64,000 nt of DNA from Podarcis gaigeae (lineage: Eukaryota): the NCBI GenBank assembly GCA_964106915.2, contig OZ066920.1; one strand, 5' to 3'. The translations under genes were made by a program, and so were the position numbers. Positions 15,740-44,031 of the stretch are shown here, in pieces (within the stretch, counting starts at the first letter, position 1; each line of letters starts with the position of its first letter). The notes below the pieces were generated by a model. The model was not told the origin of the DNA. It did no database searches and was given only the letters and a program-made list of their open reading frames with translations.

Positions 15740-15971
15740 ACCATACCCATTGAGTCAATTACCCATCTCCTACTACCCTTCTGAGAAAAACCCCACCCCA
15801 CCTTCCCACTATATATAAGGGTCTGGTGACTTCTGTTTCAGTGTATCTGAAGAAGTGTGCATGCACCCAAAAGCTTATAGAGAGAACAAACTTAGTTGGT
15901 CTCTAAGGTGCTACTGGACAATTTTTCTATTTATTTCAACTGCATCAGACCAACATGGCTACCTACCTGAA
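15740..15971 (+). mobile_element. Penelope-like element 3' end/pseudo-LTR with a decayed hammerhead
   Basis: A TATA-like TATATAAG is followed by GTAT-CTGAAGA-A-GTGTGCATGCACCC-AAAA-GCTT-ATAG (15843-15880), then TTAGTTGGTCTCTAAGGTGCTAC...CAGACCAACATGGCTACC. Flanks carry an imperfect repeat, TCCAAATTTT/TCCAAAATTT. Confidence 0.8.
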
Positions 15972-40545: not shown

Positions 40546-42440
40546 AAATGCCAGATCTGAGAACTAGGGAATGCAACCCGTCAGAAAGGCTGAACACCTC
40601 TTCCAACATCAGCCAACCAAAAGTATGTTCATATCGCACCGCTCGGAGATTGGGATGGCATGTAACAGTATTTAAATCCCTATGTTCTCTTAAATTACTG
40701 CTTAAAGGTATTTAAAAATGTAATTTGATACATTTAGACTGCTGAGATCTGCACTGTAACGTTCAGAGAAGTGCAAAATTCATTGGATTCCTATGCTCTG
40801 ATCTGCACATTAATCCAAGAGGTGCAGAGCAAGACATTCCATGTGGGAATTGGCAAAGACTGAATTCCTCAAGCATCCTAACTTCCCACTGTATTGTTTT
40901 GCTAATTTAAACCCACCACCAACACACTAGTTTATGAAATACATTGCTGCCCATTAGATTATTATTGTGCAACTTTTATCACTAGTTGTTTAGAGCACCT
41001 TACCATCATAAAACCCCGTCCAGCAATAAATAGGACAATAAATTTAATCAATTTATTTTCTCAACAATTAACCTCATTACAACTATTAATAAAACAATCA
41101 TAATTTAAATATACAAGCCTGGTAATTTCAAAGTTGACTTGGGCTGGAATCCTATAGTCATTACCTCAAATCACAGGAAATAAATTGGCATGTCATAAGA
41201 GAAGGGGTTTAGAAGGGCCTCCATAACGGTTTCTAGGTAACTTAATACAGTGTCCTTCAATGACAGCATTATCTAGTTCTTCTTTCTGTCCTGAAAACAG
41301 TTTAAAGCTACAAGATCTGTGGACAGCTTTGGAAGAAGCAGAAGTCACCTGGTCTCCACTATGCTGCCTCTCCAGAGCTCTCCTGCTTCCTCCTACATTA
41401 TGAAATTGCATCACAGGTTTATACTTGTCCCCTCATTTTCATAAATGGATCAGTTAAATAATACTAATTCTAGTATCTATCTTTCAGGGCTCCATGTTTT
41501 ATGTTTCTCCTTTGTGAAGAAAACACTTCCATGGCTTAGTTCACCAAACTGGCTCTGTGATAGCTGACTTTGGTAGGTGTAATACACCATGGTAGCTCTA
41601 AACATTTCCCCAACATTTCTGTAGACACCTTGATATGCCACTTCTGCCAAATACATGGATATGAGAAACAGTGGATCAATAACTGCTGAGAGTGAAACTC
41701 ACCGATGTATCTATCTGTGGAAGGAACTGCCCCACAGATAAAACTGGCACAATAGTTGATTTGCAAGAAGTGCCTCATGCACAGTGCCATAGGCACTGTC
41801 CCAGTTTTCCTAAGTCCTTGAAAAAAATAAAATGGGGACTAAAAAAGAAGCAACAGAAAAGAAGGTGGAAAATTAAAGACTGGCTAAAATGATTATTCAT
41901 TTATTGTACAGTAAGCAGATGTGTGATCAAAATTAGACAAGGTGAAAGTTCCAGTGCAGTAATGAGTTCCTGCAGAAGTACTGTCCTTAGCTACTTATGA
42001 GCAGATCAGAAAAGAACAAAATGGCCCTCTTAGCTTCCAAGGCCTGTGGAATGTTGAGGCCATAAAGATGAGAGAATGTTGGAAAAATTAATCTCATTGT
42101 TTGCAGAGGGAACTTCCAGATTCACAAGGAACACCAACTGCTCCCCACCAAATTCCTGTCTTTGCTGCTACTGCTTGATTAAGAGAGCAAGGGGATTGGG
42201 CACTCCTGCCCAATCACAGATATGCTGAAATCCTGAATTTCCTTACTGTTTTCTTCTCAGTTCAGGCTTTGGCACTTTATAGCACAATGAGGAAAACTTT
42301 CAGGATGTCCGGAGGAATCTCAAGTGCAGTGAGGAGCAAACAGTGATACAAGGCTCCTGTTCTGGGATGGCTAGCTAAATTCCTGAGTAGGAACACTCCC
42401 ATTTGTGGCTGGCACTAATACAACATTATGTTACAAGCTG

Positions 42441-42483
<43 letters not shown>
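42441..42483. repeat. (CTA)14 microsatellite
   Basis: Direct read. Confidence 0.98.
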
Positions 42484-42614
42484 AATATTCCTTTCTTGAA
42501 GCATGGTAAAATCAACATAGTGACCAAATCATACAACCAAAAGGGGGCAAAAGCCAAACCCAAAGCACAGTGAAACAAAAAGGTATTAACAACATGCCAA
42601 AATATCAATAGAGA

Positions 42615-42820
42615 AAACAAAAAAAAAATTCCTTCCGGTAGCACCTTAAAGACCAACTAGGTCAGTTCTTGGTATGAGCTTTCGTGTGCATGCACACTTC
42701 CTCAGATACACAGAAAGCTCATACCAAGAACTGACTTAGTTGGTCTTTAAGGTGCTACTAGAATGAATTTTTTTTTTTTGTTTTGACTATGGCAGACCAA
42801 CACGACTACCTAACTGTAAC
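42615..42820. mobile_element. Penelope-like element (PLE) remnant: inverted partial pseudo-LTR joined to a forward 3' end, with a 12-bp TSD
   Basis: Flanked by the perfect direct repeat TATCAATAGAGA (42603-42614 and 42821-42832). Arms 42614-42683 and 42713-42784 are inverted repeats. It carries the squamate PLE terminal motifs TTAGTTGGTCTTTAAGGTGCTAC and CAGACCAACACG-CTACC, shared with the copy at 15740-15971. Confidence 0.85.
42672..42709 (-). ncRNA. Minimal type I hammerhead ribozyme motif (PLE-type)
   Basis: The minus-strand RNA reads GUAU-CUGAGGA-A-GUGUGC-AU-GCACAC-GAAA-GC-UC/AUAC. Stem I is GUAU:AUAC, the core is CUGANGA with one extra A, stem II is 6 bp, GAAA is intact, stem III is the palindrome AGCU, and the UH site predicts cleavage between 42676 and 42675. 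Activity is not demonstrated. Confidence 0.75.
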
Positions 42821-44031
42821 TATCAATAGAGAGTTTGCCAACTGGGACAGTGGCTGTGCTGTGCCAGTTATAACAGTGATTTTTATCTTATTAACAAGCT
42901 AGGCACAACAAAATCAGGTGCATTAGGTTGTAGCTGACTAAGCTCTACTTAGAGGGAGCCCATGCCTACTCTGAGCAGAACTAGATACAACCCAAAATAA
43001 CTAACTATATGCCAATAGGAAGAGGTTAACATTGTGTAAGGTTCTTTTTCTGGAACCTACACTGGCTGTCAGGGCTCAGATCTATAAGATGCAACACAGT
43101 TCCTGAAAACGAAAACAAGAACAAGGAGGAGAAGGACATAAAGAGCAACTTGCTTCACCACAGATTACTGTAGCCTTCACATAAACCTCTGGCGTTGAGG
43201 GGATTAGACTACCAGTTGCCTTGAACTCCTGAATTGTTCTAACACAGCACACGAAAAAAGAAGCAGCAAACCATGTTCCAGGAGCAGGCAGAGAGCGGGA
43301 AGTTATTCTATGGCTTTTACAGGAGGTTACCAACCTTTAGGAAGATTTTAGCAAAACCACTATAGGACTGAATGGCACTCAAAGATTAATCCATCTCTCT
43401 GCCCATATAGGGATGTGCTTTGCGTAGCTTAGCTTCAGTCTGCGTTTAAATATAGGTCATCAAATCAAATGTAGTGATTCAGGTCAGTTGTAACTATAAG
43501 TCTTAATCATATAACAGCTGCTTGGTTGTTGATGAGAAATGAATTTGTGCTCCCACTCAACTTAAAATAAAACTTACAATAAAATAAAAAATAACCCGTA
43601 CAACTGGTAGTGTTGTCACTGTCAGAATGAGGGCCCGACATGATCTGCCCCAGAGAATTAAATGTAATTTCTGTGATGAAGATAGTAGCCTCATATCATA
43701 TTGGAACCATGATTCAGAGGCCATGAAGGGACTGCGGACACTGACTGTGCCCTATCTGTAGGCAGAATATTTGAGCTACAAAAGATTAAAATCTGGCACC
43801 TTCTGTGAGCACTAAAACTCATTAAAAATTCATTTTGAAAAAGTCAATGCACAAATGAAGACCAGCTATTTAAAGCTACTGGTATACTACACAAGATGTC
43901 TAACACTAGGAGTAAGTGGAACAAAGCTAAAAGGATTTGTACTACAAAATCCATTTACAACTCAGCATGAATTTTACATTTGAGCCTGTAAAATAAGAAT
44001 GATGTCCTTAAAACTCATTAAGGGCCTTCAG

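What the first reader, a model, noticed from the sequence alone, without database searches (positions are those of the whole stretch)
42672..42709. Hammerhead ribozyme with an intact core in the sense strand of the ZFHX4 pre-mRNA
Seen: the minus strand reads 5'-GUAU CUGAGGA A GUGUGC AU GCACAC GAAA GC UC|AUAC-3'. All conserved hammerhead core residues are present, with a 4-bp stem I, a 6-bp stem II and a UC cleavage site (42676|42675). Established: Penelope-like retroelements carry minimal type I hammerheads whose very short palindromic stem III (here AGCU) works only as a dimer, and an extra A between A9 and stem II occurs in natural hammerheads. Inference: every ZFHX4 transcript carries a potential self-cleaving site about 21 kb into this intron, which could cut the nascent intron if two copies pair. 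PLE hammerheads are known in general; this placement and any activity are what is unexplored.
Basis: partly seen in the sequence, partly recalled or inferred. Interest (0 to 1): 0.7.

Follow-up and report, generated by a model that had tools for sequence, protein, structure and literature searches.

The report
Locked hammerhead in Penelope retroelement stub
The ribozyme-shaped sequence in this ZFHX4 intron is real, but it is part of a recent 206-base stub left by a very common jumping gene, is predicted to be folded shut, and most likely does not cut the gene's RNA; its thousands of sister copies suggest that the jumping gene's own RNA begins right at the ribozyme.

Summary
The hammerhead letters at 42709-42672 (-) are as described and lie in the sense strand of a ~57-kb ZFHX4 intron. 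They belong to a 206-bp head-to-head insertion (42615-42820, 12-bp target duplication) of a Penelope-like retroelement with Neptune-type domains. The exact core occurs 11,179 times in this genome, so a sense copy in an intron this long is expected by chance (p about 0.19). The site is empty in two related organisms. A 70-bp inverted arm is transcribed first and is predicted to pair with G12-A14, the cut site and stem I (27 kcal/mol below the ribozyme fold). A copy-specific G7 also favours a misfold, and no sense partner lies in the intron. Cleavage of ZFHX4 RNA is therefore unlikely. Side result: about 6,000 copies start 4-6 nt before the core, about 30 nt below a TATA box, mostly with an extra untemplated G, against 65 starting at the cut site. 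The element's RNA likely starts, capped, at stem I and is copied uncut. The scan already noted such hairpin stubs in at least 9 other genomes; I found no note or paper on the cap-like G.

The parts
42603..42614 (.). Target-site duplication, left copy (12 bp)
   Evidence: Identical 12-mer at 42821-42832; related organisms carry one copy only, contigs join 42605 to 42824, a skip of 218 = 206 + 12
42615..42711 (-). Forward arm: 5' leader of the element RNA from position -6 (relative to hammerhead C3) through the hammerhead to the T-tract; no tail
   Evidence: Aligns to the full-length element L203 with 3 substitutions and T-tract gaps
42672..42709 (-). Minimal type I hammerhead motif (stem I 4 bp, core, stem II palindrome, AGCU in place of stem III); N7 is G here, A in the family
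   Evidence: at 42701 nearly all laid depth in four DNA runs carries the family letter
42675..42676 (-). Nominal cleavage site (after C17); predicted paired in context
   Evidence: P(C17 unpaired) about 0.000 in the whole element
42712..42712 (.). Head-to-head junction, one extra base; junctions differ from copy to copy
   Evidence: Alignment of 30 best copies
42713..42820 (+). Inverted arm: second copy of the leader from G12 (+22) through the tail; on the ZFHX4 strand it is transcribed before the hammerhead and is complementary to its 3' half
42785..42820 (+). 36-bp 'tail', present on one arm only; equals the last bases of the 5' UTR and the first ~11 codons of the element ORF
   Evidence: ATG at +93 in L203; 48 of 51 head-to-head pairs have exactly one tailed arm
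42821..42832 (.). Target-site duplication, right copy (12 bp)
   Evidence: (family D4)
63640..63999 (-). ZFHX4 coding exon upstream of the host intron (continues beyond the window)
6587..6835 (-). Next ZFHX4 coding exon (approximate tblastn limits), closing the ~56.8-kb intron

Best explanation
This is a recent, lineage-restricted 206-bp head-to-head insertion of a Penelope-like retroelement with Neptune-type domains, whose hammerhead is predicted to be locked by its own inverted arm and likely does not cut ZFHX4 RNA. Shown: boundaries, 12-bp duplication, empty site in relatives, a full-length parent (pLTR - 921-codon open frame with RT and GIY-YIG - pLTR), copy number. Inferred mechanism: the parent RNA is a capped Pol II transcript starting 4-5 nt before hammerhead C3. 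The element protein makes a staggered cut about 12 bp apart and primes reverse transcription from both cut ends at two internal sites of the leader (the T-tract near +85 and the tail end near +125). Each cDNA runs towards the RNA 5' end. Here one ran to the cap and the other stopped at +22, and the two were joined head to head. The result has no promoter and no ORF. In the ZFHX4 pre-mRNA it would form a ~70-bp hairpin that is spliced out with the intron.
For: Element anatomy and TSD. Empty site in organisms C and D, two studies, flanks about 2% different (X6 record 17, X9 record 24). Both junctions present in organism B contigs (X4 record 2, X5 record 16). 11,179 exact cores and 14,917 exact matches of the downstream 32-mer. 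Parent L203 with the core at both ends of a 921-aa frame, RVT_1 and GIY-YIG, CX4CxxC linker before GIY-YIG. Among 51 head-to-head pairs, 48 have exactly one tail, 0 have two, and 31 have a 12-13-nt flanking direct repeat. Junctions vary between copies. Folding: hairpin -105.6 kcal/mol, z -19; ribozyme-like fold 27 kcal/mol higher, stem I probability 0, G12/A13/A14/C17 paired at >0.99. G7 misfold: G5 and C17 unpaired 0.005 and 0.012 against 0.26 and 0.75 for the family A7 motif. 5' ends: 47 of 168 arms at -6 to -4, 4 of 168 at the cut site; genome-wide 3,508 at -4, 2,516 at -6, 3,531 running on upstream, 65 at the cut site. Extra G before -4 in 71 of the first 100 listed and 51 of 64 fetched. 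Literature: inverted 5' copy, one-sided 30-40-bp tail, TSD (PMC8557442, PMC3846280); both strands cut and extended, internal RT start, uncut RNA the main template (PMC11167929); single min-HHRs inactive, dimers weak (PMC4209133).
Against: All statements on activity are folding predictions; no cleavage or RNA-end data exist here. Co-transcriptionally, stem II is predicted to form briefly (probability 0.56-0.88 for transcripts ending at 42684-42676), and RNA-binding proteins, helicases or A-to-I editing could open the hairpin; the Anolis PLE hammerhead needs the element protein to cleave (PMC11167929), which could act in trans. Two-ended priming is inferred from end patterns; Arkhipova et al. 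read head-to-head junctions as self-priming on an antisense template (PMC3846280). Neptune membership rests on the linker motif, not on an RT tree. No single independent record spans the core at this locus. Copies starting exactly at the cut site are 2.4-fold more than at the two neighbouring positions (65 against 31 and 23), only partly explained by stem I microhomology (9 of 30 examined).
Confidence: 0.88

Rival explanations
1. One reading: the hammerhead cuts nascent ZFHX4 pre-mRNA when two copies pair, and so modulates ZFHX4 output.
For: All core residues present, in sense. Family transcripts could offer partners in trans, since the family is very abundant. Palindromic stem II gives a stable intermolecular duplex of the isolated motif (-36.0 kcal/mol).
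Against: Inverted arm sequesters the core; G7 misfold persists in the predicted dimer; no sense partner in the intron; placement expected by chance; absent in relatives; min-HHR dimers cleave weakly even in vitro (PMC4209133).
Confidence: 0.03
2. The ribozyme is inert, but the long hairpin itself affects ZFHX4 pre-mRNA (A-to-I editing, small-RNA production, polymerase pausing or splicing).
For: 70-bp arms, 91% complementary, z -19; Rfam miRNA-precursor models score it below their gathering thresholds because of the hairpin shape.
Against: About 21 kb and 36 kb from the nearest mapped coding exons; thousands of like hairpins in the genome; no conservation. No direct data.
Confidence: 0.05
3. 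The hairpin is a member of a self-propagating non-autonomous family (MITE-like element or retrozyme) that moves as a unit.
For: High copy number, terminal inverted arms, TSD.
Against: The junction differs in nearly every one of the 30 closest copies; ends are asymmetric (48 of 51 pairs one-tailed); arms match the 5' leader of an autonomous element; no tandem units; no promoter in the stub.
Confidence: 0.03
4. For the side result only: the cluster of 5' ends at -6/-4 marks a splice acceptor or a reverse-transcription pause at stem I, not the capped start of the RNA.
Against: No common upstream exon sequence among 23 arms of the -6 class or 64 of the -4 class; -4 is not preceded by AG in the parent; a pause does not explain the extra G (p about 1e-14 against one third); TATA-like box starts at -37.
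Confidence: 0.2

Closest known systems
Inverted-pLTR insertions of endonuclease-positive Penelope-like elements (Pen2a_Av type, PMC3846280; scheme in PMC8557442)
   Same: Head-to-head arms, 30-40-bp tail on one end only that overlaps the first codons, TSD, TATA-like box in the pLTR.
   Different: Extreme truncation: only the ~95-110-nt leader on each side, no ORF, no promoter; one arm lacks the 5' half of the hammerhead.
Minimal type I hammerheads (min-HHR) of metazoan PLEs (Cervera and de la Pena 2014, PMC4209133)
   Same: Core, 4-bp helix I, extra base between 9 and 10.1, G10.1-C11.1, palindromic 15.2-16.2, mostly single dispersed motifs from truncated PLEs, thousands per genome, reported in reptiles.
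   Different: Stem II is a perfect 14-nt palindrome (5 bp plus tetraloop as monomer) rather than 7-8 bp; this copy has G7 and is clamped by an inverted arm.
PAc, Poseidon element of Anolis carolinensis (PMC11167929)
   Same: Internal RT start sites bounding the tail, both DNA strands cut and extended in vitro, uncut RNA used as template.
   Different: Here the linker carries the CX4CxxC motif of Neptune/Nematis; the ATG lies 93 nt after C3, downstream of the ribozyme, not at stem II.
Non-LTR retrozymes (bioRxiv 10.64898/2026.07.22.740005)
   Same: PLE-derived, non-coding, type I hammerhead, often intronic (about 43% of copies in Xenopus).
   Different: No tandem repeat units; inverted rather than head-to-tail.
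Ultraconserved intronic hammerheads of amniotes (HH9/HH10; recalled, no call)
   Same: Hammerhead in the sense strand of a large intron.
   Different: Those are single-copy, canonical and conserved; this one is minimal, one of more than 11,000 and absent in close relatives.

Membership tests
Metazoan PLE min-HHR (type I) | Core CUGANGA ... GAAA ... UH | tested here: met
   only such motif in the window on either strand
Metazoan PLE min-HHR (type I) | Short helix I (4-5 bp), extra base between 9 and 10.1, G10.1-C11.1, palindromic 15.2-16.2 | tested here: met
   Sequence; features from PMC4209133
Metazoan PLE min-HHR (type I) | Helix II of 7-8 bp | tested here: inconclusive
   5 bp as monomer, 14-bp duplex as dimer; the paper reports 6 bp for D. 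virilis
Metazoan PLE min-HHR (type I) | Located in the pLTR of a PLE | tested here: met
   Core at 436 and 3446 of L203, either side of a 921-aa frame
Metazoan PLE min-HHR (type I) | Self-cleavage as a dimer | not testable with these tools
   Folding predicts the core is blocked in this copy
Rfam hammerhead families | Score against the curated covariance models | tested here: not met
   No hammerhead model hit at E<=10 in 2.5 kb or in the 60-nt motif
EN+ Penelope-like element, Neptune clade | Single ORF with RT and C-terminal GIY-YIG | tested here: met
   Parent L203: RVT_1 E 9.7e-12, GIY-YIG E 8e-06 at 819-867
EN+ Penelope-like element, Neptune clade | CX2-5CxxC linker between RT and EN (Neptune and Nematis) | tested here: met
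   CX4CxxC upstream of GIY-YIG in L062 and L065; criterion from PMC8557442
EN+ Penelope-like element, Neptune clade | RT phylogeny within Neptune rather than Nematis | not tested
   No tree built; named closest proteins are turtle RT/GIY-YIG proteins at 59-67%
EN+ Penelope-like element, Neptune clade | Inverted 5'-truncated copy, one-sided 30-40-bp tail, TSD | tested here: met
   Window; 48 of 51 pairs one-tailed; 44 of 51 with a flanking direct repeat of 7 nt or more
Non-LTR retrozyme | Tandem units each with a complete hammerhead | tested here: not met
   One complete and one half motif, inverted
MITE | Fixed symmetric ends and a shared internal sequence | tested here: not met
   Variable junctions, asymmetric ends
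Conserved intronic host hammerheads (recalled) | Orthologous conservation across species | tested here: not met
   Empty site in organisms C and D

The most novel reading that the evidence does not exclude
In this element the hammerhead is the very start of a capped mRNA: transcription begins at stem I (-5/-4), about 30 nt below a TATA box, and the ATG lies downstream. Cleavage would then remove only the cap plus 34-35 nt, so the ribozyme would act as a self-decapping switch that shuts off translation (or marks surplus, dimerised transcripts), not as a cutter that frees the element from a precursor. More than half of the hammerhead-bearing genomic arms would be cap-to-internal-primer cDNAs of uncut RNA. 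The start-site part I put at about 0.75; the decapping-switch role is the speculative step.
Probability: 0.25. Interest if true: 0.55.

Novelty: new member of a known kind. Interest (0 to 1): 0.22.

Why it matters
For ZFHX4, little: one of thousands of recent stubs, predicted inert. The use is in the family. The role of PLE hammerheads is open (PMC4209133 proposes release from precursors; PMC11167929 finds cleavage dispensable in vitro and no reads at the cut site). This genome holds thousands of young insertions whose ends record where the RNA starts, that it was likely capped and that it was copied uncut. That gives a cheap, direct test of what the ribozyme does in the element's cycle.

Tried and rejected
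Rfam scans gave only sub-threshold miRNA-precursor and snoRNA hits, none to hammerheads. Extended stem I beyond 4 bp: dropped, because the bases upstream in this copy belong to the inverted arm and the family leader likely starts at -5/-4. A genomic footprint of in vivo cleavage: copies starting at the cut site number 65, against 31 and 23 one base either side; 9 of the 30 examined are stem I microhomology joins to an arm starting at -4; 65 is about 1% of the 6,024 starting at -4 or -6; not accepted as evidence of cleavage, not excluded. A subfamily with a small deletion as the cause of the -4/-6 cluster: rejected, 1 of 64 and 0 of 23 arms had pLTR sequence upstream. Expression: no RNA holder listed; laying two guessed-RNA contig sets showed only short family words and nothing locus-specific; no conclusion drawn. 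Lunse et al. 2017 (PMC5785218) is not held, so I could not see whether this motif class was assayed; supplements of PMC4209133, which list reptile motifs, were not opened. Look-ups of earlier findings by sequence, by place and by the cap/TATA words returned nothing.

Full report
Observation. Stem II cannot have six pairs around a 2-nt loop; the fold gives five pairs and a tetraloop. Rfam has no hammerhead hit here at E<=10. The host gene is ZFHX4 on the minus strand: the exon at 63999-63640 is 97% identical to a protein named ZFHX4 and at most 82% to proteins named ZFHX3, and the next coding exon maps near 6835-6587. The motif is thus about 20.9 kb into a ~56.8-kb intron, in sense; non-coding or alternative exons in between were not tested.

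The motif is part of an insertion. It lies between and within the arms of a 70-bp inverted repeat. The whole object runs from 42615 to 42820 and is flanked by a perfect 12-bp direct repeat. Contigs from two other organisms in two studies run straight from 42605 to 42824, with about 2% differences in the flanks (X6 record 17 and X9 record 24): the site is empty there. Contigs of one further sample cross the left and right junctions (X4 record 2, X5 record 16); that sample may be the source of the assembly, and no single record spans the core.

The family. The 34-nt core with N7 free has 11,179 exact matches in 1.51 Gb, none for the reversed control. That is 0.42 per 56.8 kb, and p=0.19 for at least one in sense. 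[quoted passage not shown] A CX4CxxC motif precedes GIY-YIG, the mark of Neptune and Nematis elements in PMC8557442 (passages read). Named relatives are turtle proteins at 59-67% identity, so the host is probably a non-avian reptile (inference). In the parent a TATA-like box begins at -37 and the ATG at +93, counting hammerhead C3 as 0. The window's forward arm is the leader from -6 to the T-tract; the inverted arm runs from +22 to about +125, including the 36-bp tail.

Insertion geometry. From loci picked by exact patterns on the first 6.7 Mb of contig C1 (so biased to young copies), 225 BLAST arms passed the filters (reach +60, away from locus edges) and 168 remained after removing duplicates. 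They form 51 head-to-head pairs: 48 have one tailed arm, 3 none, 0 two; 44 have a flanking direct repeat of 7 nt or more, 31 of 12-13 nt; 13 pairs have two complete stems I, 20 one (as here), 18 none. Junctions differ between copies. This is the published PLE pattern of an inverted 5' copy, a one-sided tail overlapping the first codons and a TSD (PMC8557442; PMC3846280, passages read). It fits the in vitro behaviour of the Anolis element, which cuts and extends both strands and starts reverse transcription at two internal sites bounding the tail (PMC11167929, parts 1-2 of 4 read). I infer two-ended priming; PMC3846280 prefers self-priming on an antisense template, which I did not exclude.

Can it cut ZFHX4 RNA? 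On the ZFHX4 strand the inverted arm is made first. The element folds at -105.6 kcal/mol, z -19. Forcing stems I and II with an open core costs 27 kcal/mol; stem I probability is 0 and G12, A13, A14 and C17 are paired at >0.99. In growing transcripts stem II appears briefly (0.56-0.88) but the gap is already 11 kcal/mol when stem I is complete. Without the arm, this copy's G7 lets U4-G7 pair across the cut site: G5 and C17 are unpaired 0.005 and 0.012, against 0.26 and 0.75 for the family's A7 motif; the predicted homodimer keeps this misfold. The only other copy in the intron is antisense and damaged. Single min-HHRs showed no cleavage and dimers little (PMC4209133, parts 1-2 of 4 read). These are predictions, and the Anolis ribozyme needs the element protein, so activity is not excluded, but I put it near 0.03.

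Side result: where the element RNA starts. Of the 168 arms, 47 begin at -6, -5 or -4 and 4 at the cut site. Genome-wide, 3,508 matches begin at -4, 2,516 at -6 and 3,531 run on upstream (patterns of 23, 25 and 32 nt, so the last is somewhat undercounted; -5 and -3 were not counted). Of 64 fetched -4 arms, 63 are true 5' ends and 51 have a G in front, in solo (20 of 28) and inverted (31 of 36) contexts; 71 of the first 100 listed have G (p about 1e-14). Only 11 of the first 100 -6 matches have G in front, so the -6 class is most simply a -5 start plus the extra G (inference); the window's forward arm is of this class. Untemplated G at full-length 5' ends is read as the copied cap for LINE-1 and SVA (PMC4859970, passages). 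Copies starting at the cut site are 65, against 31 and 23 at the neighbouring bases, and 9 of 30 examined are microhomology joins through stem I. So the genomic copies were made mostly from uncut, likely capped RNA whose first bases are stem I. A splice acceptor at -5 is the main rival; no shared upstream exon was seen. A start site in the pLTR is known for Penelope and Chlamys (PMC2377424, passages; PMC8557442), and a TATA/Inr-like pLTR for a rotifer element (PMC3846280). I did not find the cap-like G or a start at stem I in the searches (listings only), which cover open papers only; PMC5785218 was not held and supplements were not read.

Comparison and novelty. It is a new member of known kinds: a PLE min-HHR in an inverted-pLTR stub. 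It is not a retrozyme (no tandem; bioRxiv 10.64898/2026.07.22.740005, part 1 and passages), not a MITE, and not a conserved host ribozyme (that class is recalled, no call). The review PMC6765202 (passages) gives the same dimer model. Earlier notes of this scan describe like stubs in at least 9 other genomes, including a clamped core in a KLHDC2 intron and fold-back points that mark the RNA start; they are unchecked AI notes, read after my own analysis of this locus, and one raised the splice rival.

Verdict. Observation confirmed, interpretation partly supported, interest 0.22. The ZFHX4 angle is ordinary; the family's end pattern is a modest, testable lead on what PLE hammerheads do.

Noticed in passing
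window 15756-15969 (+): Second, older copy of the same pLTR (83% to the reference) in the same intron, antisense to ZFHX4, with the TATA-like box but a damaged hammerhead 3' half.
   Followed up: partly
G000:C17:77540005-77544756 (L203): Full-length element with two pLTRs and a 921-aa open frame; other near-full copies with long open frames at 97-99% identity point to a young family.
   Followed up: partly
loci L001-L030, L205-L284: Head-to-head junctions often hold short locally templated pieces (repeats of the first 8-15 nt of the leader, or reverse complements of the core), as expected from repeated template jumps or end-joining repair.
   Followed up: no
window 41733-41806 and 42840-42878: Two short inverted-repeat pairs (19 nt, 84-89%) about 1.1 kb apart that bracket the insertion (I3 and I4); probably fragments of another repeat.
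   Followed up: no
window 42431-42493: CTA microsatellite about 120 bp left of the insertion.
   Followed up: no
window 3219-3142 (-): Weak tblastn match (E 9e-4) to the end of P0001, likely a further small ZFHX4 exon.
   Followed up: no
L198, L201: Copies with the whole ORF whose 5' end stops just before the ATG region and is joined to a short inverted tailed arm, the same one-tail geometry at full length.
   Followed up: no
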